Source of the DNA: Neophaeotheca triangularis
Taxonomy: Eukaryota
Assembly (NCBI GenBank): GCA_054600435.1
Contig: BAAIJX010000063.1
Span: forward strand, 62,001-118,636
Length of the DNA: 56,636 nucleotides
Reading direction: 5' to 3'
The notes beneath the pieces were generated by a model. That model did not search any database. It was not told the origin of the DNA and saw only the letters and a program-made list of their open reading frames with translations. The stretch's first letter is position 1; each line of letters opens with the position of its first letter. A program made the position numbers and the translations under genes. Shown here piece by piece: positions 10,208-56,636 of this stretch.

Positions 10208-10982
10208 ATTGGGAGAGATACGCTCAGGGACTCCCTTGGGATGAGTACCATGGAATGTAATGAGAGTACGAAGGAAACGGGCAACGAGGGAAGAAGTGTT
10301 CGAATTACCAAATTGAGTACACTATTAACTCAAGCTTGATTCGAATGTGTGATTGACAGTATGTTTGTAACTCGAACGAGATGCAAATACTTATAGAGTG
10401 GTAGATCACCGTGCCGCTTGGAGATTGCAATAGGGATCGTTAGCACTCACTCGAGTCAGCTGTAAGGTTTTAAACAACGAAGTAAAGGCAACGAACCCTC
10501 GCCACTACAGCCCAACATTCACTCTCTTTCTTCCAGCTTTTGAAGCATGCCTTCCGCATTAGGACATTGATAGCCCGGCTGTTTCCGTTCTTCCCCACGT
10601 CTTGGCATCGGTATATAATAGCTCTCCTGTACCGCGCGTTTGTATGGTCATGTAAACCAACAATTTTCCCCTTCCTTGAGCAACGTGACCTTTTCGCATC
10701 AAGACAAACACTGGCGCATTGCAACAGGGAAACTTCAGTCTATCTTTGCCGACAGCCAACTGTCGTTCGCGCCTTCCTCCACCACTAGCGCGTCACCATT
10801 GAGCATCTTAGGAAGCTTCACTTGAGCCCCAAGCTTCACTCTCCAACGAACAGTCACGCGACGACCTCCAACCATCTACCCCCACAACGTTGTCTGCCTG
10901 GTACAGCTTGCGACCTCTTCCTCTACACCGCGCCATTACGTGACACAAGAATGTGATCCGCCCAGCGCGTGAAATCAACCCA

Positions 10983-13664
10983 ATGCGTATCTTCACTCCC
11001 GCCTCCCTGCGCTATCCGATCACGGTCACCAAACTCCTGCGCGCACCTGGCGATGACGTAGACCAAGGCACCGCCCTCTTCCGCTACCAGTACCAGGCCA
11101 CAGTCACTGAGAGTTCGGAGGAGAACCCAGAAGGCAAGGAGGTGCTGAGATCATGGTACGCCGACTTTGAGAGCGAGCTTGAGGGCAAAGTGACGAGTTT
11201 GGATATCAAGGCCGACCAGGTCATTACTCGAAGAACGGCTGTCGCGGAGATTGAGGAGCCTTGCACGCATGAGATTCAATATGGTGGGCTTTGCGCGCTT
11301 TGTGAGAAGGATATGACGACGGTTAGCTACAACACTACCCAGAAGAACACGTCCAGAGCGACGATCAACACCACCCATGGCAATACGGCGCTTCTTGTTA
11401 GTGGACAAGAGGCCAGTAAGGCGGATGAAGAGGCGAAGCGAAGACTTCTGGACTCTCGGAAACTGAGCTTGGTTGTGGATCTGGACCAGACAATCATTCA
11501 TGCGACAGTAGACCCTACGGTCGAGCAGTGGCAGAAAGACCCGAGTAACCCCAACCACGAGGCTGTCAAGGATGTGCGAGCTTTCCAGCTGTCTGACGAG
11601 GGATCCGCATCTAGGCAGTGCTGGTATTACATCAAACTCCGACCTGGGCTTGAAGACTTTCTGCGGACAATGTCGGAGTACTATGAGCTGCACATCTATA
11701 CCATGGGCACACGCGCGTATGCGGAGAATATCGCGAGGCTTATCGATCCGGACCGCAAGATCTTCTCTGATCGCATCTTATCACGCGACGAGAGCGGAAG
11801 CATGACAGCCAAGAATCTCAAACGACTCTTTCCTGTGGACACAAGGATGGTGGTAATCATCGACGATAGAGGCGATGTGTGGCAGTGGAGTCCGAACTTG
11901 ATCAAGGTCTCTGCATATGACTTTTTCGTTGGTATTGGCGATATCAACAGCAGTTTCCTGCCTAAGCGTCCTGAGTTGGAAGCCGCAAAGCCAAAACCCA
12001 CCAAAGTTCCGTCTCCTGTAGTGTCGGAAGGTAGTTCAGAAGAGAGTGAGAAAGATTCCACGGTTCAGAGTAACCCTCCAAGCGTACCCTCAACAGCGCC
12101 TTCAACACCTCCACCCGTCAATGGCGACGCATCCGCAGTGGATCGACTTGTCACGATGGCAGGAAGTCAGGATGCCGGGGCAATGAAAGAAAAAGCCAAC
12201 CAACAAGATGAAACCCTATCCTCTCAGCTCGAAGACCGTCCGCTCCTTCAGAAACAGAAAATCCTTGACGCCGCCGAGGACGAAGCCAAAACGTCTCCTG
12301 CCGCCGAAGCAGCCGCGAACCTTCTCTCACCAGACGAGAATCAGGACTCTACCGCGCCTCCCACCGAACACGCCTCAAAGTACCGCCACAACCTGCTCCA
12401 AGATGACGACACCGAACTTCATCACCTCAGCCAAAGCCTTCGCAACATTCATTCGGCCTTTTTCACCGAATACGATCGCTCCAACAGCACCACCAACCCC
12501 CGCGTCACAGCACTCAACCCAAAAGTCTCAGCACAAAAGCCATCTCCCTCCACATCCCTCTCCAACATCCCCGACGCCGCAGCCCTAATGGCAACAATGA
12601 AACGCCGCGTCCTCGCAGGCGTGCACCTCGTCTTCACCGGTGTCGTGCCACTCGGCGTCAATATACATCACCACGACACAGCCATCTGGGCCAAGAGCTT
12701 CGGCGCTAGCGTCAGCGAGAACGTTGACAAGAAAACCACTCACGTCATCGCTTCGCCGCAGCGGCGCACTGTCAAAGTACGCCAGGCGCTTAGAAAGGGG
12801 CCTGGAAGAATTGCCGTTGTGAGCCAGGGCTGGCTGTTCGCGTGTTTTAGCCAGTGGAAGCGGGTTTCAGAGGCGGAGTTTCGAATTCATTCCGAGGGAG
12901 GTGTCAATGGGGGCGCGGGGTTGCCTGGAGGGTTTGCGGAGGGTGCGGCGAGAGGAGAAAATGCGCTGAGCTCGAGTGATAGCGAGGCGACGGGGACTGA
13001 GGACGAGTCAGCTGGGGAAGAAAGCGGGACCAGTAGCGCTCTTGCGGTCAGGACTGAGGAGCTGGAGACGGATACCGAAGCCGAGCTCGAGAAGTATAAA
13101 CCCTCTTCCGATCGCGATGAGTCTCCTATAGAGGAACACAAGGAAGATTGGGAGGATATCGATCGCGAATTTAAGGATTTCATGGGCGAGGATTACGACA
13201 GCGATGATTCCGAGTTTAGCATGGCTAGTCTGGACTCCGGGCGAGAAGGGTCGGAGAATGGTGATGGAGGTGGTGGTGCAGAAGGTGAGAGGAAGCGGAA
13301 GAGGGAGGATGGGGAAGTGGGCGGGGAGAGCGCTGGCGACGAGGAGCACCGGCCCGGAGAGAGTAGGTTGCAGAAGCGAAAGAAGGAGGCGCTGGAGCGG
13401 ACTACGAGTTTGACAAAGATGGCCACCGTGCCCGCCTCTTCCCCTGCGAATGGCTCTTCGCCTGCCGCTGCTGTCAACGAGCCTGATGGTTCTGCAGATA
13501 GCGAGACCGTCAAAGCCGACCGCGAAACTGTGGAAGACGACAGCGATCCCGAAGCCGCGGGTGATGGCGGCGAGGATGTCGTCGAAGATGACGATGAAGA
13601 TGACCTGGGCACCATGCTCGAGGCAGAGATGAGTCGCTCTGACGGCGATGAAGAGGGCTTCTAG
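10983..13664 (+). CDS. FCP1: RNA polymerase II CTD phosphatase Fcp1
   Basis: CxHxxxxGGLCxxC motif, catalytic LVVDLDQT (DxDxT), YIKLRPG, VVIIDDRGDVW, BRCT domain (aa ~540-640) and acidic tail. Confidence 0.96.
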   Translation: MRIFTPASLRYPITVTKLLRAPGDDVDQGTALFRYQYQATVTESSEENPEGKEVLRSWYADFESELEGKVTSLDIKADQVITRRTAVAEIEEPCTHEIQYGGLCALCEKDMTTVSYNTTQKNTSRATINTTHGNTALLVSGQEASKADEEAKRRLLDSRKLSLVVDLDQTIIHATVDPTVEQWQKDPSNPNHEAVKDVRAFQLSDEGSASRQCWYYIKLRPGLEDFLRTMSEYYELHIYTMGTRAYAENIARLIDPDRKIFSDRILSRDESGSMTAKNLKRLFPVDTRMVVIIDDRGDVWQWSPNLIKVSAYDFFVGIGDINSSFLPKRPELEAAKPKPTKVPSPVVSEGSSEESEKDSTVQSNPPSVPSTAPSTPPPVNGDASAVDRLVTMAGSQDAGAMKEKANQQDETLSSQLEDRPLLQKQKILDAAEDEAKTSPAAEAAANLLSPDENQDSTAPPTEHASKYRHNLLQDDDTELHHLSQSLRNIHSAFFTEYDRSNSTTNPRVTALNPKVSAQKPSPSTSLSNIPDAAALMATMKRRVLAGVHLVFTGVVPLGVNIHHHDTAIWAKSFGASVSENVDKKTTHVIASPQRRTVKVRQALRKGPGRIAVVSQGWLFACFSQWKRVSEAEFRIHSEGGVNGGAGLPGGFAEGAARGENALSSSDSEATGTEDESAGEESGTSSALAVRTEELETDTEAELEKYKPSSDRDESPIEEHKEDWEDIDREFKDFMGEDYDSDDSEFSMASLDSGREGSENGDGGGGAEGERKRKREDGEVGGESAGDEEHRPGESRLQKRKKEALERTTSLTKMATVPASSPANGSSPAAAVNEPDGSADSETVKADRETVEDDSDPEAAGDGGEDVVEDDDEDDLGTMLEAEMSRSDGDEEGF

Positions 13665-36974: not shown

Positions 36975-37752
36975 GGCCCAGGCTGCAGCTGCCGAAGCTC
37001 GAGTCGCCACTGCAGGTGAGGTGTTCATGAGCGTCCATTCGTGTGAACGAGGAGGAGGCACAGTCATCGGTGGTTCGCTAAGGGGGACGCTGTCTACAGG
37101 TCGTTTCGGAGCTCGTCCACGCGGCTGCTGAAGCTGGATTTGAGCCTGCAGGTGAGGTGTTTATGCACGTCGATTCCACGTGAAGAGGAGGACGTACGGT
37201 GATCGGTAGTTTGCTAAGGGGGACGTTATCTACAGGTCGTTTCGGAGCTCGTCTGTACGGCTGCTAAAGCTGGATTCAAGACTGTAGGTAAGGTTTTCAC
37301 ACGCGGCCATTTCACGTGAAGGAGAGGATGTACGGTGATTCGTGATTCGGAAGCGCTGAGGGGGAAGCTGTCGACAGGGAGCTTCTGAGCTTCATATCAA
37401 TGCAATGGGTCATATGGCCGAGCTGCAGCTGCTACAGCTGGATTTGAGACTGTAGGTAAGGTTTTCATACGCGGCCATTTCACGTGAAGAGGAGGACGCA
37501 CGGTGATTCGCGATTCGGAAGCGCTGAGGGGAAAGCTGTCTACAGGTCGTTTCTGAGCTTCATATCAATGCAATGGGTCATATGGCCGAGCTGCAGCGGC
37601 TGAGTGGCTGAAGCTGGATCTGCGGCTACATGTAATGAGGGGGACGCATGGTAATAGGCGAGTCGCTAAGGACGAGGCTGCCTAACTATCTAGATACAGG
37701 TCGCTTCTGAGCTCTATGCTAATCCTTGCGAAGGATTGTTTCGTCTGCAGGT
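36975..37752 (+). repeat. Tandem array of 5 units plus a partial unit (periods 136, 136, 168, 176 bp) with splice-like signals
   Basis: Anchor (A/C)AGCT(G/C)GA at 36995, 37131, 37267, 37435 and 37611. Each unit has GT-RA(G/T)G...GCTRAG...ACAG|G. Confidence 0.9.
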
Positions 37753-38029
37753 TGCTCCTATCCTTCCTGTGCTTCACAAGATGGGGCGCCGCCACGCCAC
37801 TCTCGCAGATTCTGAGTCTTGGCGCATACCTGCAAGGCTTTAGGCTTAGGCCATGGCGACTCTTTTAGAGGCTCTCGCATGCCCACCTTCACGCTTTGAA
37901 CATACTGCACGGCTTTTGCTACTCCCTCACCATATCAGCTCGAAGCCTCTTCTATCTCGCCCACACCCTCATTCTTTGGCTGGCGTTCACGCCTAGACGC
38001 CTGATTCTTACGTCTTCGCCGCAGTCAGC

Positions 38030-40865
38030 ATGGACGAGCGGGATTTTCTTCCTAGGCACATGGTCCAGCTGAGGCTGATCGATGGCAAAGAGCTCAAATG
38101 CGAACTGTCAGGCTTCTCTGCCTCGACCTGCTGGTATGAGCGCAATCTTGACGAGGTATTGGGAAACAAAGGCGGACACTTCACTGTCTTCCGTGAAAAT
38201 TTTTCGAAGTCTGCTCAAGACGTCAGGCTTGAAGGCAACGTTCTCAAGGCACAGTTACGAACCCGAGATGGCAGTTGGAGAGAGGATCAAGTAGAGATTA
38301 GGGTGGCACGGGTACCCAAGGCTGCCGCAAAGACTTTCACGCTCGCTTTCGGCATACGGGATGTCTTCTACCCCGTCCCTTCCTGCGTGTGTCATGCTAC
38401 ACGTCAATATCCATTGCTCGAACAAGGCCCAAAAGACGACTGCCGCAATCTGAGAATCTCTCAATGCGGCCGCTTCATCATAGCTCTCTGCAAGCAAACT
38501 GACGGCCATTACCGTGCCTCGTATATCGCATTGAACAGATTGTTGGCTAGTGAAGGCTTCACATTCGACGACCGCCACAGATTTAACAGTGAATGTGATC
38601 ATAGGCCAACAATTTCACATCTCACTATATACGCTGGGCTAGTGGGTCCCGACGGTGATACGCAACTATCTGCGCTCGACCTACGCAAGTACCTTGGCTG
38701 TCGTGACGGTCGCCTGGTAGCTCTTGCCGAAGACGAGCCAAAAGACAGCGACATGACATTGGCAGCCGCAAGAAACAATGAAGAAGCCACGGCACCGATG
38801 GACTCGGTGACACCAATCTATACGCCCCTCGAAAACAAGGGAATGATCCGAGTTTGCGAAATTGCTAGAGGTAAATGGGATGACCCAATCTCTTGTCGAT
38901 TGAAATGTCGGGCACTGGACGGAGCAGAGCCATACACCTGCCTTTCGTACACCTGGGGTTCCATGGCCAATAGCTGTTCAATCACACTCAACCAACATCC
39001 TTTCAGCATTGGGCGCAACCTGTTTCGCCTCTTGAGACGTCTACGTTGCAGAGGGGCGGTTTCCATCTGGATCGATGCACTGTGTATAGACCAGTCCAAT
39101 CATGCTGAGAAGTCAGTGCAAGTCGCGCAAATGGGTGCCATCTACTCGAAAGCGGAGAAGGTTTTTATCTGGCTTGGAGAAGACTGTGAGGGCGAGGGTA
39201 CAGAAGACCCTTCAGTATACCACCCTCAGTGCGGCCATACAGACTCTTCCAACATTCCCAAATTCGATTTCGTACTGTTGACAACGATGTTTGAGTACAT
39301 TGCTGCTGGCTGTCACTATTACGAGATCCCTGGGATTTTTCATCTGTTGCCCGACGGCCTAGCCTGTTGCAATCCCAGGAGAGCGATCCAATCCCTGTCA
39401 CTTGCGTTGCACCGCTTTTACGAATCACAATGGTGAGTGCAACTCCGGAGTCCAAAGCAACCGGTCTTAGTATCGCTGCTTCTAACACATACATCGCAGG
39501 TTCTCGCGCACGTGGACCATACAAGAGCTTGCGCTCCAGCCTAACGCAGAGGTACTTATAGGGGGTTCGTCTGTACGCTGGAGTACTATAAACGATGTTC
39601 GATGTGCGTTGAAACTTCACCACACGGGCTGTTGTGGCGTCTTTGGGGATGCTTCCGGATCGAGCAACAATTTCTCGCGGGAGACGGAAATTGTGGAAAA
39701 ATTGCTGCGACTTAGGTTCAAGTTTGACGAATTGGACTGGTTCGGTGTCGCGAGAGGCCTACTTGCAGATCTCAGTCGTCCATCCGAGGCCAGGTTACGC
39801 TATCTCACTTGGCTTATAGACCGTGGCTCCAGACAGTGCGCGTCGGATCCTCGCGACAAGATTTTTGCTTTCTTCGGCATTGGCGGACCAACTTTTGAGG
39901 GTTTTACGCCCAGCTACAATGCCACTGCCGTAGAATGCTACAAGAGCTTCACACTATGGTTAATCCAGGGAACACGATCTCTAGATGTTTGGGACTTCTT
40001 GGCTTTTGACGCCAACAAAGGCCGAAATCCAGATCTTCGAGGCTTACCTTCGTGGGCGATAGACTGGACACTTCAAGGCAGACGCGCAGTGGTCAAAGAA
40101 CAGCCTTATAGAACAGACAAATTGTCACTGAACTGCGCACCTGGCGTAGCAGCGACGGCAGACGTCCAGGCCGATGGAACCCTCGCGGTTCGAGGCATCC
40201 ACATAGACAGTGTCCACCTTGTTAGCACGCGCAGCTGGTCTGATAGAAGTCAACGAAACGAGCTTCCTCTCGTTATACTCGAGTGGACGGAATTCGCGAC
40301 TTCAACGCAAGCTCTTGGTCACGAGACCGGAGCCTACACTAGCGCAATGGATGCTTTGTTCAGGGTTGCGACCAGTGATAGTATACCGTTGAAGAAAGGT
40401 TTGGTCGGGAACTTACCTACTGGTGATTCCAGCAAGTGGCGACGAGCTGCTGCTGAGGATCGTGCAACGTGGTCAGAATGGGCGTCGCGTCTCCAAGATG
40501 ATGCATGGTTGAACAACGAGTCAAAAAATGGAGGAGCGCACACTCTACATCCGAAAAGGACTGACCATGACGAGACGCCTGATTGGCAAATTGAAGACGC
40601 GGTCAGCGTCGCTGCCGAAAACCGCAGACTGTTCGCAACGGAAGGCTCACGTTTAGGGCTTGGGGCCCTTTGCATAGAGCCTGGCGATGAGATCTTCCTC
40701 CTACAAGGCGCGAGCAATCCCTATGTTCTCAGAGAGAGCAGCGACAAGAAGCATTCTTCAGGTCAAAAGACTTATGCCATCGTCGGAGCTTGTTATGTTG
40801 ATGGGGTGATGGACGGGGAGCTGAAGGACATGCTCGAGTCTGCGGATACAGTCTATCTGTGCTAG
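38030..40865 (+). CDS. CVNH-CVNH-HET fusion protein (~922 aa), 2 exons (intron 39433-39499)
   Basis: N-terminal CVNH-like NLDEVLGNKGGHF...NFSKSAQDVRLEGNVLKAQLRTRDGSW, then a second degenerate copy ending LDLRKYLGCRDGRL. HET motifs YTCLSYTWG, IWIDALCIDQ..EKSVQVAQMGAIYSKA and W|FSRTWTIQE. HET-6-like tail DPRDKIFA, LPSWAIDW and VGACYVDGVMDGE. Confidence 0.88.
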
Positions 40866-41125: not shown

Positions 41126-42385
41126 CTAAGCTTCCACAGTCACATACTCAACGCCGCATTCCACATCCCCCGTAGCTCCCGCAGCAGCCGGCGTTGTCAG
41201 TGTCTGGAACCCGCTCGAGGGCTGCGAGATCTCCCACTCGTTGGCAACGTCTTCCAACTCGTCGACTGGGGCGGTAGGCTGAGGTCCCCACGGCGCTTGC
41301 TCAACCGGTGGCGAGGGAGCTGAAGGTGGAGTAGGCTGCCACTGTTCGGCGACAGGGTCGGTGGATTCGATGGGCGTTTCGTCGCCTTCGGTGGGAGAGG
41401 TTGTGTCCCAGTCATTGAAAGCGGTGGTGGGTTCGGTGGCATCGGAATCGGTCTGTTCCTCTGGCTCTGTAAAGCCAGGCACCGCGGCCGCTTGTTCAGC
41501 TTCAAGAGCAGACCCCGCGCTAGGGGTGAAAAACTGCTCCCAGAACGTCCAAGTCTCCTCAGGCGCCCAAGGACCAGGGTAAGCATCATGATCGCCGCCC
41601 CAGGTAATGAATGTCACAGGCTCGACGGCGCACGTGTACTCTGTTTTCACGTAGTCGGATGAGCCTGGGGCTGGGGTTGGCAGTTCTTCGCCCGTGCAGT
41701 CGTTGTTGCTGAGGAAGGTGTTGCGGAGTTCGCGGCCGCGGTCGAGGGGCAGGATGTCGTCCGTCACGCCGTGGATACCGAGGTAGGGAACGGCGTCGTT
41801 GCCGGCGCTGCAACCGCTGAGGAGGGCGCCTGCTAGGACTGCTACGGCTGTGAAAGTGTCTGCATAATGGTGATCATTAGCGATTGATAGTTTGACTGGG
41901 GTTGAGTGGAGATGTTTTATACCCGCGCGGTCGCAAGCAACGGCGTAAGTCATAGCGCCACCGTACGAGAAGCCCGTGGCAAAGCGCTGTGACTGATCCA
42001 CGCACAGCTCTGCCTCGACTTCCTCGATGATCTGGTCGGTGAAGAGCAAGTCTTCGCCGTCGACATTGGCCCAGCCGGCGTCCAAACCGTTTGGTGCGAC
42101 GAAGATCGCTGAGCCAGCTGCGTGCTCTTCGAGCCCGTAATGGTTGGCGCCCACGACCATGTCCATGTTGCCATCCAGCCAGTGGTAGTTGATGATGAGT
42201 TTGTGCTGAGTGGTTGGGTCGTAAGTCTCTGGGATTGTGACCGTATATTCGCGAGTTTGGCCGTTGACTTCGGTCGTGCGGAGGCCGCTGGGGGATGGGT
42301 TGGTGTTACTGCAGCCGGGCGATTGGGCCAGGGTTGCTGGGATTACGGCCGCCGGGGCTCTAAGGGTGGCGAAGAGAGAAGGCAT
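41126..42385 (-). CDS. CE1-like feruloyl/acetyl esterase with a Pro/Thr/Glu-rich tail; probable in-frame intron 41860-41922
   Basis: SPGC...REYTVTIPETYD, AIFVAPNGL, LCVDQSQRFATGFSYGGAM (GxSxG), GIHGVTDDIL and GGDH. Confidence 0.85.
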   Translation of the reverse strand: MPSLFATLRAPAAVIPATLAQSPGCSNTNPSPSGLRTTEVNGQTREYTVTIPETYDPTTQHKLIINYHWLDGNMDMVVGANHYGLEEHAAGSAIFVAPNGLDAGWANVDGEDLLFTDQIIEEVEAELCVDQSQRFATGFSYGGAMTYAVACDRAGIKHLHSTPVKLSIANDHHYADTFTAVAVLAGALLSGCSAGNDAVPYLGIHGVTDDILPLDRGRELRNTFLSNNDCTGEELPTPAPGSSDYVKTEYTCAVEPVTFITWGGDHDAYPGPWAPEETWTFWEQFFTPSAGSALEAEQAAAVPGFTEPEEQTDSDATEPTTAFNDWDTTSPTEGDETPIESTDPVAEQWQPTPPSAPSPPVEQAPWGPQPTAPVDELEDVANEWEISQPSSGFQTLTTPAAAGATGDVECGVEYVTVEA

Positions 42386-43570
42386 GTCTGTTGAAGGATA
42401 GGCACAGCCTGGTTGTTTGAAGGGAATATGGAGCAAGAAACAAAGGGTTCGAGTTGTCTGGGAGGGGAAGTTCGGAGTCGAGTCTCGGGGGGAACTCCCT
42501 TCCAACGCGTCCTTACCTCGCGCAAGGAGAAGGACTTTTAACTGGTCTAACCTACTCGCTTGCATTGTACCATGTCACATTTTTATGCTCATCGACCGAT
42601 GACAACACCCTTGTTGGCGTTCGGGGTTTTAAAGGGGAAGCGAAGGGGCAACTTGTACTGGAACCTTGACAGACAACAGATAGTCGCTCAATGAGCTAGC
42701 AGCCAGCTTCCTGCTGACCTACAGGTAAATACATCAATCCCAGACGTGGTCCGTTCACTGATTGTCAAGCGTGTCGAACAGTAGTATGATCTGCACCGTG
42801 TGCTAGGCGGCTCATGCACGGTTGTCGGTAGGCTTAAGGAGCTGGGGGCATTCGGTTCTTCCACGTGTGTCGCGCTTGGAACCACATAGATACGAGCTGC
42901 CTGTGTATCGAGTTTAGTAGTGTGGACGTGTCGTGGGCTGCTGTATCAGTTGACGTTGCTCCTCATTCACTCGGAGCTGCGCCACATGAGGTCGGCATCA
43001 TCGAGGGCGGTCCGACGGGGGCTCCTGAGGTCCCGAGGTCGCCCCGAAAGCCATCCTGCTGACATCAGCCCCATCAGCCTTACAACCCCACCCAACACCC
43101 AATGAGGTAAGTCCTGCACTCGAGCCATCGCAGCCCAAGCAAACATCCAACCGAGCACTCCCGGGGAGTTGTGATTCTTCGCGAAGCTGTCCTATTGAAC
43201 GTAACAAACCTCTGGGACAATCGAGAAAACTACACTCTCAACGTCAGTTACTTTACGCTGTCCCCAGTCACTCGTTGCGCTTCGAACACACGACAAAGTC
43301 AGCCTCCGCCTCCGCCTGAACAGCAACAACCCCTCGCCAAGCGTACCGAGACCTCGCCTGCACGCCCAGCTCTTTACCTCTCACACTCGCTAGAAAGAGA
43401 CCCCCCTTGGAGAGCGCTAACTAGCTGTGACTGCTGAGCGATCGCTACGAACGGCCACTTTCGCACTGAACACTTACACACCACATCCCAACGCGACAAC
43501 CTCAATCTGATCAAAACTCCTCCAAAGCAGCGGCTCGGCCGCCGACAACAAGCAGCTTCAGGCTACAACC

Positions 43571-45529
43571 ATGGAATCTCCCGAGATTGTGCGCGTCCGG
43601 CGCAAAGACACGACCAAAGGCCCGCCCCTGCGCATCCTGTCGCTCGACGGTGGTGGCGTGCGCGGCTACTCCATGCTCATTATCCTGCAAGAGCTGATGC
43701 ACCGAACCTTTGTGGAGATCGAAGGCCGTGCGCCTAAGCGCCATGAAATCCCCAAACCTTGCGAGCACTTTGACCTCATAGCCGGCACTGGGACGGGGGG
43801 CTTAATCGCGATCATGCTGGGTAGGTTGCGGCTGGACATTGATACTTGCAAAGATGTGTATGTGCGCATGACTAGGAGGGTTTTCGAAACGGACAAGACG
43901 TTTGCTGGAATTCCGTATAGAAGTACGCTGTTCAAGGCGAGCAAGCTGGAGGAGGCCATCAGGGAGTGCGTGAGGGAGCATACTGTTTTCGAGGACGAGG
44001 GGAATGATACGTTAGCGAATGCGACGCCCATGAGTCCGGAGACGCCCGGGAGCGCGGGCACGGGAAGCAGTGGTGTGCCGCAGCGATCCATGAGCCAGAC
44101 GAGCAGGTACAGTCAGGTTGGTATGAGTCCGATGGGCGGGGGAAGGCCGATGTTTGGGAGCATGCGGTTTGGAAATCCGAATGCGCTGCTATATGACACG
44201 AGGGAACATCGCACGAAGACGGCAGTGACAGCACTGTACAAGGGTACGCCGAGAGATGCGCCTGCGGCATTTTTGCGTTCGTATGATTCGCGTAAAGAGC
44301 CGGCGCCGGATGTCAACTGCAAGATTTGGGAGGCTGGAAGAGCGACTTGTGCGACTGGCATGGCTTTCAAGCCGATACAGGTTGGACAGTCGGTGTACAT
44401 TGATGAGGGCCCGGGAAGGTACAATCCGGCACCGCAGGTTTTGGACGAGGCCGCGCAGAATGAATGGCCGGGGAGGGAAGTAGGGGTGTTTGTGAGTGTT
44501 GGGACTGGAAAGCCGCCTCAAAGGACTGGATCGCAACAGCCGGAATGGTGGGAGAGCTTCCTCGGAGACAACATGGGGAGTTTTGCGGAAGCAAGAAGAC
44601 GGCTGGCGTCGAAGATTGAAGGCTGCGAAGGCACCCACCAGTACATGAAGAGAGAACACTTGGGCTCACGAGGCGTCAACGCAGAGAACTACTACCGCCT
44701 CAACGCAGAAGTCGGTGTTGGTGATTTTGGCATGAACGAATGGAACAGACTCTCCGACATCAGCACCAACACGCGCATGTACCTAGGCCGCAAGGACGTC
44801 GAGGCCATCAACCTTGGCGCATCGGCCAAGCTTGCGAAAATCCATTTCGCGAAAGCGCGCTACGAGCGTGCAGAAACCCGCAGAGCAGCGGGTACAGATG
44901 GTCCGCAATATCAAAACCCTACCAATCCATGGGACAGACCGCTTCCTGCCGCACCCCCGCCATCCAACCCCATGGCCGTCGAACTCCCCGGCGACGACAT
45001 GTACCTACAGACCGAAAGCTTCCGCCCAGGCTCGCAGCTCAGTAACAACGCAAACTCCGGCCGCTACTCCTACGAGCATCGCCCCAGCGTCGTCGACCAG
45101 AAATATGTCGTAGTCGGCGAAGACCACGCACCCGACCCACCGCAAACACCGCCGCAGCAGCCCGCCTACCCGCAACAACAGCAGCAAACCCGTCCCTATT
45201 CCCCAAGCTCCCCGTCCCACTACCTCTCCCGCTCCCACGGCACCCAGAACTCCTCAAACTCCATCCCGCCGCTCCAACCGCACTCGCCCCGCCACAGCGT
45301 CGATTCTTACCAACAGCAACCGACTTCCCCTCCGCCTCTGCCGCCCAAGACCCCGCTTCCCTACCCCGACGACGACGCTTACGGCGGCGCTCCTCATCCC
45401 GCCGATGGCAATGGTGGGCCCAGGACTTTCACGCACATGGGGAGTTTAGGTCGTCGACTGCCGTATCCGGATGTCGAGGGCCCGCCGCCTGCGGTCAATG
45501 TTGGGAGCAAACCAACCATGACGCGGTAA
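43571..45529 (+). CDS. Patatin-like (iPLA2-gamma-like) protein lacking the nucleophile Ser, Pro-rich tail
   Basis: LRILSLDGGGVRG, FDLIAGTGTGGLIAIMLGRL, IWEAGRATCA, YIDEG, FVSVGTG and YYRLN; intronless 652-aa ORF. Confidence 0.9.
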   Translation: MESPEIVRVRRKDTTKGPPLRILSLDGGGVRGYSMLIILQELMHRTFVEIEGRAPKRHEIPKPCEHFDLIAGTGTGGLIAIMLGRLRLDIDTCKDVYVRMTRRVFETDKTFAGIPYRSTLFKASKLEEAIRECVREHTVFEDEGNDTLANATPMSPETPGSAGTGSSGVPQRSMSQTSRYSQVGMSPMGGGRPMFGSMRFGNPNALLYDTREHRTKTAVTALYKGTPRDAPAAFLRSYDSRKEPAPDVNCKIWEAGRATCATGMAFKPIQVGQSVYIDEGPGRYNPAPQVLDEAAQNEWPGREVGVFVSVGTGKPPQRTGSQQPEWWESFLGDNMGSFAEARRRLASKIEGCEGTHQYMKREHLGSRGVNAENYYRLNAEVGVGDFGMNEWNRLSDISTNTRMYLGRKDVEAINLGASAKLAKIHFAKARYERAETRRAAGTDGPQYQNPTNPWDRPLPAAPPPSNPMAVELPGDDMYLQTESFRPGSQLSNNANSGRYSYEHRPSVVDQKYVVVGEDHAPDPPQTPPQQPAYPQQQQQTRPYSPSSPSHYLSRSHGTQNSSNSIPPLQPHSPRHSVDSYQQQPTSPPPLPPKTPLPYPDDDAYGGAPHPADGNGGPRTFTHMGSLGRRLPYPDVEGPPPAVNVGSKPTMTR

Positions 45530-51956: not shown

Positions 51957-52618
51957 GTTGATTAGATGACATACTACATTTGAGCGTTTTCGAAGGGGTT
52001 AGACTACTAGCGGTAGTCTAACCGGGGGTACCCTATTACGGTAAAAGCTCGGTCTAGTAAATGCCTCGGGGGTACTAAGGTACATATAAAAAGCTCGATT
52101 AGGTAGGTAGACTAGTATTAAACTAGCTCTTTCGTCCGTACTCGATCGCGAGCTTAACGCGCTCCCTTAGTAGTGTTTACAGTACGTATGCTTATAGTTA
52201 CTACTACTAGTATAGTGTTTTGTATAACTAGGCATACCGCTATAAGGCCTTATACTATTAAGAGTAGTAGTAGTGATATGACTAATAAGGGGGAGCAAGA
52301 GGCTATTATTTAGTACTATTTTAATACTAATTTAATAAAAATTAAATGACTAATGTAACCTATAGAGTAGAGTAACACTAGAGTGTAGGAGTACGTCTAG
52401 ATAAACTATACCCTAACTACATATAGCTAGCTAGTCTATAAGACTACGTTAGTCTATACTAGACTAGGCTAGTCTACACTAGACTATAAGGACTACTATA
52501 GAGTAGGGGTATAGCCATTTTAGAGCGCTAAGACACTATAGAGCATATAGTCCTAACTAACTAGAGCGGTAGTCTAATACCTTCGAAAACGCTTAATTAA
52601 GGTATTACTCTAATTAAC
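51957..52618. mobile_element. RIP-degraded non-autonomous inverted-repeat (MITE-like) element
   Basis: The left arm GTTGATTAGA..ATAC..TTGAGCGTTTTCGAAGGGGTTAGACTAC matches the reverse complement of 52569-52618 (GTTAATTAGA..ATAC..TTAAGCGTTTTCGAAGGTATTAGACTAC). Internal TAGTCT/AGACTA hairpins. Confidence 0.6.
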
Positions 52619-52774
52619 TTAAGATTTATTAGATAGCTATTAGTCCTTAGGTAACGACTATAGTATATACTAAATAAGGCCCGAGTACCCTATGATCTAG
52701 CGATAGATATCTACTAACGACTATAAAGAGAGAGGTAGCTCGTAAGGAATAAGTCTTAAGACGTACTAAACATA

Positions 52775-52965
52775 TGTCGAAGAAGCTACTCTACGCTATA
52801 TAGACTAATAAGTATTATAATAAGCTATACTACATAGTACGTAATAGCCTATACCTAAGGTATTAGCTAGAAGCTATAACCTGTCTTTATAGGCTTTACT
52901 ATAAAGTACCTAGTTTAGTCCTTAGTAATTAATTAATCGAGTTTATACTACTATATATTATAATA
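52775..52965 (+). repeat. 5' LTR of a copia element, followed by a PBS at 52966-52979
   Basis: Starts TGTCG and ends TAATA (CGACA after C>T/G>A changes). Followed by GGTTATAAGCCTAG, a RIP-mutated form of the copia-type PBS GGTTATGAGCCCAG. Confidence 0.7.
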
Positions 52966-55900
52966 GGTTATAAGCCTAGTATATTAATCTATATAAGTAA
53001 GTACGAAACTAGCTAATTACAATTCCTAGGATAACTATCCCTAGTTAAATAAAATAGATATAAATAATAAGGGAGCTAAGGATAATAAGATCCTTAAGAA
53101 GAACATAACCTTTAGTATCTAGGAGGCTATCCTAAAGAGTAAGCTATTTAATAAGGACTATCTTAACTATATATTTTATAACCTTAAATAGCTACTAAGG
53201 GTAGTCTAACTACTAATATCTATAATAGATACTATAGTTAAGTTCTATAAGAAAGATATACTTATATATAGTATTATTATAGAAAGGCTATTAGATAAAT
53301 ATAGGCCTAACTATAGTAAATTATATAAGACAGCCTATAAGCTATTTAAGTATATTAAATCTATCTACTAGCCTAATGTTATAGTTACTCTCTATAAGGC
53401 TATCTCTAACCTCTATAGTATTAAGCTATAAGGAATAAATACCCTAAAGTATTATTAGGAGTTTATAGTAGCCTATTAGACCTTTAAGAGAGCTATAAAC
53501 TAATAGATAGCTCTAAGGAACTAGATAAATGTAAGAAGTATTAGTCTCCTAGATAACTATATTAAGATTCTCTTTAAAGGGAGAACTCTAAATATAGAGT
53601 AGCTTAGGACTTAGAGATATAATAACCTCCCTTAAAGTAGGAAATACTTAGAGGATGTAATTACTAGCCTTAGGTCTAAGGCCTTACCTCCCCTTTTATA
53701 GTAATAGAGGAGGTTATAGGGGTTTATAGGTATAGTAAAAGATAATATCTATACCTAATATAATTACTACTAATATACTAATACTAAATACTTTAAGTAG
53801 TACCTAGAGTAGGTACCTAAATAGTATAAGAAATGTAAAGATAGTAAGAAGGATAGGTAGGAGGGGAAGAAGAAGGATATAGAGAAGAATAAGAATACTA
53901 AGTCTACTAAGAAGAAGGGGAGAAAAGCTACTATAGCTATTAATAATAGTAATAATAGTAATACTAAGTTAATCTTATCCCTATCTTTAGGAGATATATT
54001 AAGTATTACTCTATCTCTCCCTATAGTACTATAAGCTATAGTACTAGAAATTACTATTATCTTAGACTCTAGATTATCCTTCTCTTTCTTTAATAAGCTT
54101 AAGCACTTTTAGGATATTAAGCCCCTTAGGAAGCTAATTATCTCTAGCTAAGCTATTAGATAGGCCTCTATTACCTATTTAGGGATAGTTAAGCTCTCTC
54201 TTAAATATTATAATAAGATCTTTAGCATTACCCTAAAGAATGTCCTATACTCCCTAAGATCCTCTACTAACCTAATTTATATAGATATACTATACTAGAA
54301 GTATAGGATTACTCTAGATAGATATACTAATAAGCTAAGGTCTAATAAAAGTACTATTAGGATAGTAAAGCAAGTTTATAAGGTAGATGTTATATAGGAA
54401 ATTAAAATCCTCCTACTACTTTAGTAATAAAGTCTACTATTAATAGTAGTAGCTATACTAAGATTACTAGTAGTACTAGTAGTATTAGGGCTAAGAGTAG
54501 ATATAACTAGATAGTACTAAAGATTAGGCTATATTAGTAGTAGTATTCTTAATACTACTAAACAATATATAACTAGACTTAAAGTAGTAGACACTATAGC
54601 CCTAGGCTACTATAAGGTCTATAAACTCTTAAAGTCTTAAAGGGTTATCTTAAGAACCCTAAGAGTAAGGACTAGTTAAGCCCTAGATAAGATATATGTT
54701 AGTATAGTTAGCCCTATTATACTAACCTCTAGTAATAGTCTAAGGTACATTATCTTCCTAATAGATTCTAAAACTAGGTTTAGGTAGCCTCTCTTTATAA
54801 GAAATAAAAGTAAGGCACTATTACTTATTAAGAATTTTATATTAAGAACTATAAATGCCTATAATAAGGTACTAAAGATATAGTTCTCTAATAGTAGTAG
54901 GGAGTTTATTAACTATAATTTAATTGTTATAGTATAGTAGATAGGGATAAGATAGGATATCTTAAGTCTAAAGACTCCTAAGTAGAATAGCATTATAGAG
55001 TTATCTAATAAAACTATCCTAGCTAAGGCTAGGGCAATAATAATTAACTCTAGTATTCCTAGAGATCTCTAGCCCCTAGCTATAAACTATATAGCCTATA
55101 TTACTAATATAGTCTATAACCTTAGGACTAAGAAAATTCCCCTATAATACCTTAAGAAGGATTTAGGGGTTTCTAAGGACTAGACTATTAACCTCTCTAA
55201 CCTTAGAAGATTTAGCTATAAGGTATTCCTATATAACTAGAATAGGATTATATTAGAAAAGTTTACCCTAAGAGCTACTATCTACTAGTTTATAGGATTC
55301 TAAGATAACTCTACTACTAATTACCTCCTAATAATACTAACTAGATAGAGCCTATTTAGTATTATTTAGAGCCTATATATAACCTTTAATAAGGATACCT
55401 ACTTTAGGCCTATTTAGGCTCCTATAGTTTAGGGAGAGTAGTTAGCCCTTTATATCCTAAGGCTTTAGGAGAACTCTATTAGCCTATAATAGGAATAATA
55501 AGCCTCTCCTAAGAGAGAGTAGTAATAATAATAAGCCTCTCCTAAGGGAGAGTATTAACACTAGTAAGTCTCCCCTAAAGAGTAGGGAGAGTACTAACCT
55601 TCTCCTAAGGGAGACTACTAGTAAGCCTCTCCTATAGAATAGGGAGAGTACTAAGAAGTCTCCTCTATAAATTAGGGAGAGTAATAGTAGCCCTTAGTTA
55701 ACTAAATAGAGGAAGATTAGAGAGATACCCTAATAACACTATTCTTCCCTTAACTAACTACTAGTAAGAGGAAGAGATTACTATCCCCCTAGCCCTTAAT
55801 ATATATAAGGGTAGGTAGGCCTATAAAACTATAGAATTATAGGTAGTTATATATAGGAGCTATAACCTAAGCTACTAATAATCCTAAGGACTATTACAAT

Positions 55901-56240
55901 ATATTTAGTAGAAAGGATATAAGCTAGTAGAAGGCTATAATAATTAAGGAGATTAAAAGCCTTAAATCTACTAGTATAATTACCTAGATTAAGTAATTAG
56001 AGCTACTACCTAGTAGAAGAGTACTTATAGGGAAGTAGGTATTTAAGCTAAAGCTTCTCTTAGATAGCTCTATTAATAAGTATAAGGCTAGATAGATAGT
56101 AAGGGGATTCTTATAGAAATAAGGTACTAACTATATTAATACCTTTATACTAATACTAAGACTAGGAATAGGAAGGATCCTCCTAGCTATTACATTCTAG
56201 CTTAAATAGAGTAGAACCTAGATTAATATAGAGATAGTAT
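52775..56240 (+). mobile_element. RIP-destroyed Ty1/copia LTR retrotransposon, truncated in RT
   Basis: After reversing C>T/G>A changes: gag CCHC (~53750), protease ILDSG (~54060), integrase WHQRLGH (~54512), HVDIVGP, DGGxEF, TPEQNG, and RT GKWVFKLK..DG..KYKARWVVRGF (~56030-56110). The order PR-INT-RT is copia. Extreme TpA excess. Confidence 0.92.
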
Positions 56241-56516
56241 TGTCGTAGTAACTCCTATACTACATTTATAGACGTACTTGTTTTCGTAGTATTTACTTTA
56301 TTATTACCCCCTTTATATACCTATACCTCTCCCTACACTAGTACTTATACCTTAGATACCTACTAACCTAGATAGATATATATAGAATAAATTACGACTA
56401 ATTAAATTAGCCTCTAGGTACTATAACTAACCTAACTAATTTCTAACCCTTATACATTATTTGTAACTATTATGAATAATCCCTAATTCTCGACTATACC
56501 TAATTCCTAACCCTAC
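56241..56516. mobile_element. Second LTR-like fragment interrupting the copia RT
   Basis: RT homology stops abruptly after the (Q)IDVETA-like codons at a new TGTCG start that resembles the first ~30 nt of the upstream LTR. Confidence 0.45.
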
Positions 56517-56636
56517 TTAGGGTTAGGGTTAGGGTTAGGGTTAGGGTTAGGGTTAGGGTTAGGGTTAGGGTTAGGGTTAGGGTTAGGGTTAGGGTTAGGG
56601 TTAGGGTTAGGGTTAGGGTTAGGGTTAGGGTTAGGG
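56517..56636 (+). repeat. Telomere (TTAGGG)20
   Basis: Perfect TTAGGG array running to the end of the window. Confidence 0.99.

What the first reader, a model, noticed from the sequence alone, without database searches (positions are those of the whole stretch)
38030..40865. Cytosolic tandem cyanovirin-lectin (CVNH) plus HET fusion: candidate one-component glycan-sensing cell-death receptor
Seen: one spliced ORF with no signal peptide or TM segment. It carries a clear CVNH-like domain (~38060-38300), a second divergent CVNH-like domain (~38426-38725), an intact HET domain including the WxxRxWxxQE Glu, and a HET-6-like tail. Established: CVNH domains are mannose/glycan-binding lectins, and HET domains are TIR-related effectors of fungal allorecognition cell death that are often fused to NLR NOD/repeat sensors. 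Inference: here a lectin pair takes the place of the NLR sensor, giving a direct glycan-triggered death or immunity switch. It sits about 16 kb from the telomere, where fast-evolving non-self genes cluster. I know of no functional characterisation of this architecture, though it may exist in domain databases.
Basis: partly seen in the sequence, partly recalled or inferred. Interest (0 to 1): 0.75.

Follow-up and report, generated by a model that had tools for sequence, protein, structure and literature searches.

The report
Cyanovirin-lectin plus HET cell-death protein
A fungal gene near a chromosome end fuses two cyanovirin-type lectin domains to a HET cell-death domain, a combination that recurs in many fungi and probably acts as a self-contained sensor-and-killer, though what it senses is untested.

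Summary
A two-exon gene (38030-39432, 39500-40865; 67-nt intron) encodes a 922-aa protein. It has no signal peptide or membrane segment. It carries a canonical CVNH domain, a second degenerate CVNH domain, a complete HET domain and a Het-6-type tail. It lies 15.65 kb from a (TTAGGG)20 telomere.

The architecture is not unique. 18 of 134 representative relatives of the lectin region also carry HET. They come from four classes of ascomycetes and show three topologies: lectin at the N-terminus, lectin nested inside a HET loop, and lectin with ankyrin repeats.

I found no paper describing the fusion. A published precedent exists for the logic. In Podospora het-B, a non-NLR HET protein uses a different lectin fold to recognise a protein partner.

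A lectin module replacing the NLR sensor is therefore plausible. Glycan triggering is unproven. CVNH-1 keeps part of the cyanovirin sugar-site pattern. CVNH-2 kept none of the six positions checked in the corresponding half. Differences from the nearest relative concentrate in one half of each lectin domain.

Verdict: real gene, new variant of a known kind, moderate interest (0.45).

The parts
38030..39432 (+). Exon 1 (aa 1-467 plus two bases of W468)
   Evidence: First ATG of the open frame 37997-39436. A GTGAGT donor lies at 39433. The relative P0042 starts with the same MDERDFLPRH.
39433..39499 (+). Intron, 67 nt (GTGAGT...CTAAC...CAG)
   Evidence: Read from the sequence. Removing it joins the two halves of one HET domain. 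There is no transcript evidence.
39500..40865 (+). Exon 2 (aa 468-922 and the stop codon)
   Evidence: It is colinear to the last residues with P0066, P0075 and P0149.
38063..38374 (+). CVNH domain 1 (aa 12-115). The profile-supported core is aa 13-90. The second half (aa 40-94) is canonical. The last hairpin is non-canonical.
   Evidence: Pfam CVNH best stretch is aa 18-88. My own profile gives 72.7 bits. AF2 pLDDT is about 90, with strands at 12-17, 21-26, 34-39, 62-68, 71-77, 83-94, 103-109 and 112-115. Foldseek returns CVN/CVNH hits.
38438..38734 (+). CVNH domain 2 (aa 137-235), divergent. The middle half (aa 168-217) has lost the family motifs.
   Evidence: My own profile gives 21.3 bits over profile positions 6-103. 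Scored alone it gives 27.7 bits against a maximum of 6.2 in shuffles. It aligns with canonical second CVNH domains of homologs. AF2 pLDDT is 70-90, but below 50 at aa 182-189.
38933..39539 (+). HET domain (aa 302 to about 481), interrupted by the intron. Block 1 LSYTWG is at 38942-38959, block 2 WIDALCIDQ at 39068-39094, block 3 WFSRTWTIQE at 39431-39527.
   Evidence: Pfam HET E 8e-25. All 15 of 15 near-invariant family residues are present.
39843..40067 (+). Conserved post-HET motifs: SDPRDK (39843-39860) and LPSWAIDW (40044-40067)
   Evidence: They align with CSDPRDR/ASDPRDK and LPSWAVDW/LPSWVIDW in homologs. PMC10890737 describes a PSWSW-type motif in TOL, PIN-C and relatives of BH.
40599..40862 (+). 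C-terminal Het-6_barrel-like region (aa 835-922)
   Evidence: BLASTP HSPs to the C-termini of 15 HET proteins, 13 of which carry precomputed PF26639. Atlas look-alikes carry PF26639 Het-6_barrel, score 0.99. The homolog model shows a strand-rich C-terminal domain at aa 833-912. The local Pfam copy gave no match.
56517..56636 (+). Telomere repeat (TTAGGG)x20 at the end of the window (context)

Best explanation
The locus encodes a cytosolic, non-NLR HET-domain protein. Its N-terminal pair of cyanovirin-type (CVNH) domains is the ligand-recognition module. Its HET domain with the Het-6-type tail is the cell-death effector.

Proposed mechanism. The lectin module binds a multivalent ligand, most likely a mannose-containing glycan or glycoconjugate. 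Binding would be at the conserved second half of CVNH-1. The two divergent halves (aa 12-39 and aa 168-217) would tune or extend specificity. Ligand binding brings HET domains together or relieves an intramolecular block. HET then triggers regulated cell death, in the way HET-domain incompatibility proteins do.

Shown: the gene model (by homology, not by transcript), the domains, intact HET motifs, absence of NOD or repeat domains, and recurrence of the CVNH-HET combination in several topologies.

Inferred: that CVNH is the sensor, that the ligand is a glycan, that activation is by clustering, and that the output is death.
For: - Domains and intact motifs.
- CVN fold. In the colinear homolog P0075, target-normalised TM-score (TMt) reaches 0.88 over 102 columns.
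- Recurrence: 18 of 134 representative relatives of the lectin region carry HET. HET is the commonest partner domain. The other 116 show CVNH alone or with LysM, crystallin, DUF3011 and similar.
- Spread: named members come from Dothideomycetes, Eurotiomycetes, Sordariomycetes and Leotiomycetes.
- Three topologies exist. In one, CVNH is nested between HET blocks 2 and 3, as in P0060, P0067 and P0079.
- On a HET-domain tree, CVNH presence needs at least 4 changes. This points to repeated fusion and hence functional coupling.
- HET is a death-inducing domain and is remotely TIR-like. A lectin-fold domain sets specificity in the non-NLR HET protein BH (PMC10890737; PMC4986451; PMC10197012; passages read).
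- For a glycan ligand: PMC8091458 lists 12 residues of the cyanovirin-N domain-B site. CVNH-1 keeps 4 identical (N46, N57, F58, R79) and 2 conservative (S61, R77). These include both residues whose side chains bond the sugar in that paper's simulation. This is my manual mapping through the alignments.
- That half is 52 of 55 identical to the nearest relative.
Against: - No binding, toxicity or expression data exist.
- CVNH-2's matching half keeps none of the six positions I mapped.
- The only characterised HET-plus-lectin-fold protein recognises a protein, not a sugar.
- A secreted CVNH effector of Sclerotinia binds a plant peroxidase in yeast two-hybrid (PMC11064801).
- High-mannose glycans are not normally displayed in the cytosol, so the setting in which the protein would meet its ligand is unexplained.
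- The HET-TIR link was not recovered here. Foldseek of the homolog model gave no TIR hit in the 50 listed matches. A family profile against PDB sequences found only cyanovirins, 17 of 17 hits.
- The nearest relative's copy reads as frameshifted.
Confidence: 0.4

Rival explanations
1. The architecture and output are the same, but the lectin folds serve as a protein-recognition surface. The protein would be a het-B-like allorecognition or guard component. Its CVNH module binds a polymorphic fungal protein or a foreign protein, and glycan binding is vestigial.
For: - BH of het-B uses a lectin fold to recognise the PII-like protein BP. In Sordariales, 5-10% of HET proteins carry such a lectin fold (PMC10890737).
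- SsCVNH interacts with a peroxidase (PMC11064801).
- Differences from the 85%-identical relative concentrate in CVNH-1 strands 1-3 (17 of 28 identical) and the middle of CVNH-2 (34 of 50). The other CVNH-1 half is 52 of 55 identical and the HET part 105 of 113. Fisher p = 2.8e-7, with regions chosen post hoc. This is the pattern expected of a specificity surface.
- CVNH-2 has lost the family motifs.
Against: - No partner-like gene is next door. The neighbours are malic enzyme, an esterase-like ORF and a patatin-like gene, and Pfam found no PII-like domain.
- The canonical half of CVNH-1 is strongly conserved across the whole family. That conservation is easier to explain by a shared small ligand.
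- Repeated independent recruitment of CVNH by HET suggests a generic property of the fold is being used.
- Only one relative was available, with no DNA, so selection could not be tested.
Confidence: 0.3
2. The lectin module is not a trigger. It localises, scaffolds or regulates the protein, for example by tethering it to a glycan-rich structure. Alternatively HET acts as a signalling adaptor rather than a killer, so there is no one-component death switch.
For: - Only a small fraction of HET-domain genes are known incompatibility genes, and the mode of action of HET is unknown (PMC10890737; PMC10197012).
- Dyrka et al. proposed an adaptor role for HET (PMC4986451).
- The large conserved tail (aa 480-922) has no assigned function and could carry the regulatory logic.
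Against: - According to the papers read, HET alone is sufficient to induce death in Podospora.
- Insertion of CVNH inside a HET loop in some relatives suggests intimate coupling rather than passive tethering.
Confidence: 0.15
3. The gene is a decaying, lineage-restricted subtelomeric gene with no current function.
For: - CVNH-2 is degenerate.
- The nearest relative's copy shifts frame after IWLGED and stops at 416 aa.
- The window's protein was not found in the protein collection, although its neighbour Fcp1 is there.
- The gene lies 11 kb from an AT-rich block.
Against: - A 922-codon frame is open across a canonical intron.
- All 15 of 15 near-invariant HET residues are kept.
- It is colinear end to end with homologs from other classes.
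- GC content across the gene is normal.
- The relative's frameshift sits in a 1,622-bp read-assembly contig and may be an assembly error.
Confidence: 0.05

Closest known systems
Podospora anserina BH (Bh, het-B locus): HET + HET-associated domain + C-terminal fruit-body-lectin fold (Clave et al. 2024, PMC10890737)
   Same: It is a non-NLR HET-domain protein. A lectin-fold domain stands where an NLR would have its sensor, and that domain determines recognition specificity. It also has a conserved post-HET region with a PSW-type motif.
   Different: The lectin fold there is actinoporin-like and C-terminal. Here it is a cyanovirin-type pair and N-terminal. BH has an adjacent polymorphic partner gene (PII-like), and none is seen here. 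BH is genetically proven, whereas nothing is tested here.
Neurospora crassa HET-6, TOL and PIN-C type stand-alone HET-domain proteins
   Same: They share the HET domain with three conserved blocks, the PSW-type motif and a Het-6_barrel-type C-terminus. HET genes tend to lie near telomeres (PMC10684091, abstract seen).
   Different: As far as I recall, those proteins have no lectin module. I did not align them here. The Het-6 link rests on the name of PF26639 and on proteins that carry it.
Single-domain fungal CVNH lectins (TbCVNH 2JZK, NcCVNH 2JZL, GzCVNH 2L2F) and the CVNH-LysM lectin MoCVNH3 (2L9Y, 5C8O)
   Same: They share the fold and family. My recollection, not checked here, is that many also lack a signal peptide.
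   Different: Those are small stand-alone or LysM-interrupted lectins. Here two copies are fused to a death domain, and one copy is degenerate.
[quoted passage not shown]
   Same: HET serves as the effector and is coupled to a variable recognition module.
   Different: Those use a NACHT domain plus WD40 repeats. Neither is present here.
Uncharacterised database homologs: Hortaea werneckii RMY83831.1 (863 aa, 'Cyanovirin-N domain-containing protein'), Anthostomella pinea CAJ2508401.1 (847 aa) and P0075 (913 aa, unnamed source)
   Same: They are colinear from the tandem CVNH through HET to the C-terminal barrel. On the HET tree the window protein groups with P0042, P0075 and P0149 (SH-aLRT 98).
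   Different: They are only 27-28% identical. Their second CVNH domain is canonical, while the window's is degenerate.

Membership tests
CVNH (Pfam PF08881) | Profile match above the curated cut-off | tested here: met
   65.4 bits against a cut-off of 24.5, E 8.9e-18. My own profile finds two domains, at 72.7 and 21.3 bits.
CVNH (Pfam PF08881) | Cyanovirin fold: two pseudo-symmetric halves, each a three-stranded sheet plus a hairpin | tested here: met
   AF2 model plus Foldseek gave 22 hits at E<=1e-3, all CVN/CVNH, with target-normalised TM-score (TMt) 0.57-0.72 for monomeric entries. This is met for at least one domain. CVNH-2 has the expected strand order but was not searched on its own.
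CVNH (Pfam PF08881) | Binding of Man-alpha-1,2-Man or high-mannose glycans | not testable with these tools
   Only residue mapping was possible. CVNH-1 keeps 4 identical and 2 conservative of the 12 cyanovirin-N domain-B site residues. CVNH-2's matching half keeps 0 of the 6 positions checked (manual mapping).
HET (Pfam PF06985) | Profile match above the cut-off and the three conserved blocks | tested here: met
   88.3 bits against a cut-off of 22.5. LSYTWG, WIDALCIDQ and WFSRTWTIQE are present, and 15 of 15 near-invariant residues are kept.
HET (Pfam PF06985) | Remote homology or shared fold with TIR domains | tested here: inconclusive
   No TIR hit appeared among the 50 listed Foldseek matches for the homolog model, nor among 17 profile hits to PDB sequences. 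The link rests on the HHpred and JackHMMER results of PMC4986451.
HET (Pfam PF06985) | Induces cell death when expressed or activated | not testable with these tools
   Known for Podospora HET domains from the papers read. Not known for this protein.
het-B BH-type HET plus lectin-fold recognition proteins | N-terminal HET, HET-associated domain, C-terminal fruit-body-lectin fold | tested here: not met
   The lectin here is CVNH and sits at the N-terminus. This is therefore an analogue, not a member.
het-B BH-type HET plus lectin-fold recognition proteins | Adjacent polymorphic partner gene (PII-like) | tested here: not met
   ORFs within about 8 kb on each side of the gene gave malic enzyme, patatin, MFS or no Pfam family. 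None was PII-like.
het-B BH-type HET plus lectin-fold recognition proteins | Divergent alleles under balancing selection, with specificity in the lectin fold | not testable with these tools
   Only one relative is available, as protein only. Its differences cluster in two lectin sub-regions, which is suggestive only.
Fungal NLR (NOD-like receptor) | Central NACHT or NB-ARC domain with C-terminal WD40, ANK or TPR repeats | tested here: not met
   No such Pfam match at E<=10 in either exon.
Het-6_barrel tail (Pfam PF26639) | Profile match to PF26639 | tested here: inconclusive
   The local Pfam scan gave no family for exon 2. It also did not report PF26639 for P0012, which carries it in the precomputed list. 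Indirect support: 13 of 15 proteins that align with aa 835-910 carry PF26639, and atlas look-alikes score 0.99.

The most novel reading that the evidence does not exclude
CVNH-HET proteins would be a widespread class of one-component, non-NLR cytosolic pattern-recognition receptors in ascomycetes. Multivalent mannose-type glycans would cross-link the cyanovirin module. Such glycans could be exposed by ruptured secretory compartments, by intracellular invaders or by a fusion partner. Cross-linking would drive HET (TIR-like) oligomerisation and cell death. This would give fungal cyanovirin homologs their long-missing physiological role, and it would show that fungi fused the same sensor to the same executioner several times independently.
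Probability: 0.2. Interest if true: 0.8.

Novelty: new variant of a known kind. Interest (0 to 1): 0.45.

Why it matters
HET is one of the most abundant and least understood domains in fungal genomes. How it is switched on outside NLRs is known genetically for only a few loci. Fungal cyanovirin homologs are structurally well studied, but a 2021 lectin survey still says the function of cyanovirin in plants and fungi is not elucidated (PMC8227253).

A recurrent fusion of the two gives both a concrete, testable hypothesis: lectin as sensor, HET as output. The lectin is small and soluble, and its ligands can be screened on arrays. That makes this family a more tractable entry point to HET activation than repeat-based NLRs.

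If the ligand turns out to be a protein, the family would extend the het-B principle, a lectin fold acting as a protein-recognition surface, to a second and unrelated lectin fold.

Tried and rejected
1. NLR reading. No NACHT, NB-ARC or repeats were found. Rejected.

2. Secreted lectin or effector reading, as for SsCVNH. There is no signal peptide or membrane segment by a hydropathy scan. Rejected, with the caveat that no dedicated predictor was run.

3. TIR link. Foldseek of the 913-aa homolog model and a family profile against PDB sequences returned only cyanovirins as significant hits. The PDB copy yielded no hit to any HET-domain chain. Not recovered.

4. Pfam on exon 2 alone gave 0 families at E<=10. 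The tail had to be assigned indirectly.

5. Word-indexed searches for longer relatives. With exon 1 I got 41 hits, mostly HET-only, with a best identity of 40% over 25% of the query. With the lectin region I got one hit, P0042. No full-length ortholog was found, and the window's own protein was not found either.

6. Search for a partner gene or a second CVNH or HET copy in the window. None was found.

7. Literature.
   - 'CVNH' + 'heterokaryon incompatibility' gave 7 papers.
   - 'cyanovirin' + 'HET domain' gave 3 papers.
   - I opened two of these (PMC10684091, PMC3218866), and in both the terms occur in separate contexts. For the others I saw only the listing.
   - Two further CVNH searches also showed no paper on the fusion in their titles and abstracts.
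   - Koharudin 2008 (by DOI), PMC3076533 and PMC5009269 are not held. Percudani 2005 was not looked up. What I say about CVNH types and the single sugar sites of the fungal lectins is recalled or omitted.

8. Not run.
   - The complex-prediction job was not used, because no specific binding pair is claimed.
   - The genome-contig collection holds only bacteria and archaea, so it was not used.
   - As a result, synteny, polymorphism and DNA-level selection in fungi stayed unchecked.
Full report
**What is there**

The region holds one gene on the + strand. The first ATG of the open frame is at 38030. That frame closes at 39434-39436 inside a GTGAGT donor. A CTAAC branch site and a CAG acceptor end a 67-nt intron at 39499. 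The next frame then runs to the TAG at 40863-40865. The spliced product is 922 aa.

The junction produces ESQW|FSRTWTIQELAL, which is HET block 3. It aligns with the same block in three full-length homologs, and those homologs are colinear with the window protein to the last residues. A HET profile I built from homologs matches positions 5-127 in the exon-1 ORF and 164-191 in the exon-2 ORF. The two ORFs therefore carry consecutive parts of one domain. There is no transcript evidence.

**Domains**

- Pfam gives CVNH (E 8.9e-18) and HET (E 8e-25), both far above their cut-offs.
- A profile of 33 single-domain CVNH proteins places CVNH-1 at aa 13-90 (72.7 bits) and CVNH-2 at aa 137-235 (21.3 bits, nearly full profile length).
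- CVNH-2 alone scores 27.7 bits. The maximum over 2000 shuffles is 6.2.
- An AF2 model of aa 1-260 (30-sequence alignment, mean pLDDT 74.8) shows two strand-rich modules with the cyanovirin strand order. CVNH-1 is confident. CVNH-2 is moderate and has a disordered stretch at aa 182-189.
- Foldseek against the PDB returns only cyanovirin-N and CVNH structures among its 22 hits at E<=1e-3. The tool does not report which module was aligned.
- The protein has no hydrophobic segment (maximum Kyte-Doolittle 19-residue mean 1.14) and a charged N-terminus.
- All 15 residues that are at least 90% conserved in a 42-sequence HET-family alignment are present. They include R, W, Q and E of block 3.
- The last ~90 residues align with the C-termini of 15 other HET proteins, 13 of which carry PF26639.
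- The protein-atlas look-alikes of exon 2 are Het-6_barrel clusters.
- The local Pfam copy gave nothing for exon 2.

**The two lectin domains are not equal**

In the family alignment the near-invariant columns are L40, G45, N46, G49, F51, F58, S61, L67, L72, A74, L76 and W83. All of them lie in the second half of CVNH-1, and the window keeps all of them. At the matching positions of CVNH-2 the family has G173 and G177, while the window has A and F.

I mapped through the alignments onto the 12 cyanovirin-N domain-B site residues listed in PMC8091458 (passages read).
- CVNH-1 keeps N46, N57, F58 and R79 as identical residues.
- It keeps S61 and R77 as conservative replacements.
- The matching half of CVNH-2 keeps none of the six positions I checked.

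This mapping is manual. The same paper shows that most sugar contacts are to backbone atoms, so the mapping is only indicative.

**Relatives**

An exhaustive HMMER search of 1.84 billion representatives with aa 1-235 gave 134 hits at E<=1e-3. I scanned all 134 against Pfam, 54 and 80. All carry CVNH, and 18 also carry HET. Four of these 18 are weak, partial HET matches followed by ankyrin repeats. A Mollisia protein adds a nineteenth.

Named members come from these species:
- Hortaea werneckii, Meristemomyces frigidus and Saxophila tyrrhenica
- Penicillium longicatenatum
- Xylaria grammica and a Xylariales sp.
- Podospora didyma
- Anthostomella pinea
- Mollisia scopiformis

Three topologies occur.
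- CVNH N-terminal to HET, as in the window. Ten of the 18 are of this kind.
- CVNH N-terminal with ankyrin repeats inside HET.
- CVNH nested between HET blocks 2 and 3. Motifs confirm this in P0060, P0067 and P0079. P0080 groups with these three on the HET tree, and Pfam places its CVNH after its HET match, but none of the three HET block motifs was found in it.

On a quick maximum-likelihood tree of HET domains, the window protein forms a supported clade with P0042, P0075 and P0149 (SH-aLRT 98). The tree had 56 rows and 183 columns, and four fragmentary rows were dropped. Eight other CVNH-HET proteins form a separate long-branched clade. CVNH presence needs at least four changes on the tree. 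Only 11 of 53 inner branches are well supported. The HET-only comparators are the biased set. I therefore read this as suggestive of repeated fusion, not as proof.

**The nearest relative**

P0042 comes from a 1,622-bp read-assembly contig. It is 85% identical over 385 aa. It then continues in another frame of the window sequence and stops at 416 aa. That is either a one-base indel in that organism or an assembly error.

Its differences from the window protein are uneven.

| Region | Identical residues |
|---|---|
| CVNH-1 strands 1-3 | 17 of 28 |
| Middle of CVNH-2 | 34 of 50 |
| Canonical half of CVNH-1 | 52 of 55 |
| HET part | 105 of 113 |

Fisher p = 2.8e-7, with regions defined after looking at the data. 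Each lectin domain thus has one conserved half and one divergent, fast-changing half. With one protein pair and no DNA, I cannot tell diversifying selection from relaxed constraint.

**Context**

The window ends in (TTAGGG)20 at 56517-56636. Just before the repeat lies about 4.5 kb of 31% GC sequence. The gene ends 15,652 bp from the repeat.

Neighbours are a malic enzyme gene upstream, an esterase-like ORF with no Pfam match, a patatin-like phospholipase, an MFS transporter and a fungal transcription factor downstream.

The Fcp1 phosphatase encoded at 10944-13664 is in the protein collection as the window's own protein. Its nearest named relatives are 59-63% identical: Saxophila, Meristemomyces, Vermiconidia and Extremus. 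The source is therefore an undescribed or unnamed Dothideomycete near the rock-inhabiting black fungi.

**Comparison with what is known**

HET is a death-inducing domain of fungal incompatibility proteins. HHpred and JackHMMER in Dyrka et al. 2014 (PMC4986451) show remote similarity to TIR. My own searches did not recover that link.

The closest functional precedent is BH of het-B in Podospora (PMC10890737). It is a non-NLR HET protein whose C-terminal fruit-body-lectin fold sets specificity for a PII-like protein encoded next door. In Sordariales, 5-10% of HET proteins have that lectin fold. The window protein works on the same plan with a different, N-terminal lectin fold and no visible partner gene. 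It is an analogue, not a member.

I found no paper describing a CVNH-HET fusion (searches; two of the ten co-mention papers opened). Databases already hold such proteins under generic names.

**Most likely mechanism**

I favour a sensor-executioner reading. The CVNH module binds a ligand. Binding clusters or unlocks HET, and HET kills the cell or compartment.

| Reading | Probability |
|---|---|
| Glycan ligand | 0.4 |
| Protein ligand | 0.3 |
| CVNH has a non-trigger role | 0.15 |
| Decaying gene | 0.05 |

Every step beyond the domain anatomy is inferred.

**Verdict**

It is a new variant of a known kind, of moderate interest. The family is a tractable route to the question of how HET domains are activated and what fungal cyanovirin homologs are for.

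Noticed in passing
window 37009-37601: A tandem repeat array lies in the 5' intergenic region, about 430 bp upstream of the start codon. It has periods of 136 and 168 bp, about 4 copies in all, with 80-91% matches. Its role, if any, in regulating the gene is unknown.
   Followed up: partly
window 52000-56636: About 4.5 kb of AT-rich sequence (GC 0.31, against 0.51-0.58 elsewhere) lies directly before 20 TTAGGG repeats at the end of the window. This looks like a RIP-degraded subtelomeric block. RIP indices were not computed.
   Followed up: partly
window 43511-45529 (+): A 672-aa ORF 2.6 kb downstream has a patatin-like phospholipase domain (E 2.8e-15) and nothing else recognisable. Patatin is one of the effector domains found on fungal NLRs (PMC4986451). 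Two cell-death-associated domain genes therefore sit side by side, but no NB-ARC is attached here.
   Followed up: partly
P0042 (relative, 1,622-bp contig), corresponding to window ~39180: After IWLGED, the nearest relative's protein continues in the +1 frame of the window sequence and stops at 416 aa. This implies a one-base indel. It is either a pseudogene in that organism or an assembly error.
   Followed up: partly
P0060, P0067, P0079 (relatives): In these HET proteins the CVNH domains sit between HET block 2 (WIDxxCIxQ) and block 3 (RxWxxQE), inside the variable loop. In other relatives the same loop holds ankyrin repeats.
   Followed up: yes
window 38030-40865 versus the protein collection: The window's Fcp1 protein is in the 5.8-billion-protein collection (P0185, from a 118,636-bp contig). 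No protein matching this gene's exon 1 or its lectin region was found at 413-2335 aa, apart from the 82-85% relative. The gene seems not to have been called in that genome.
   Followed up: partly
window 41126-42574 (-): A 482-aa ORF lies immediately downstream on the opposite strand. By eye it looks like a secreted esterase with a Pro/Thr/Glu-rich C-terminal stretch, but it matches no Pfam family at E<=0.01.
   Followed up: no
PDB copy: Neither a family profile nor a full-length model retrieved any solved structure for the HET part. The only significant hits were cyanovirins. No HET-domain chain was retrieved from the PDB copy searched.
   Followed up: partly
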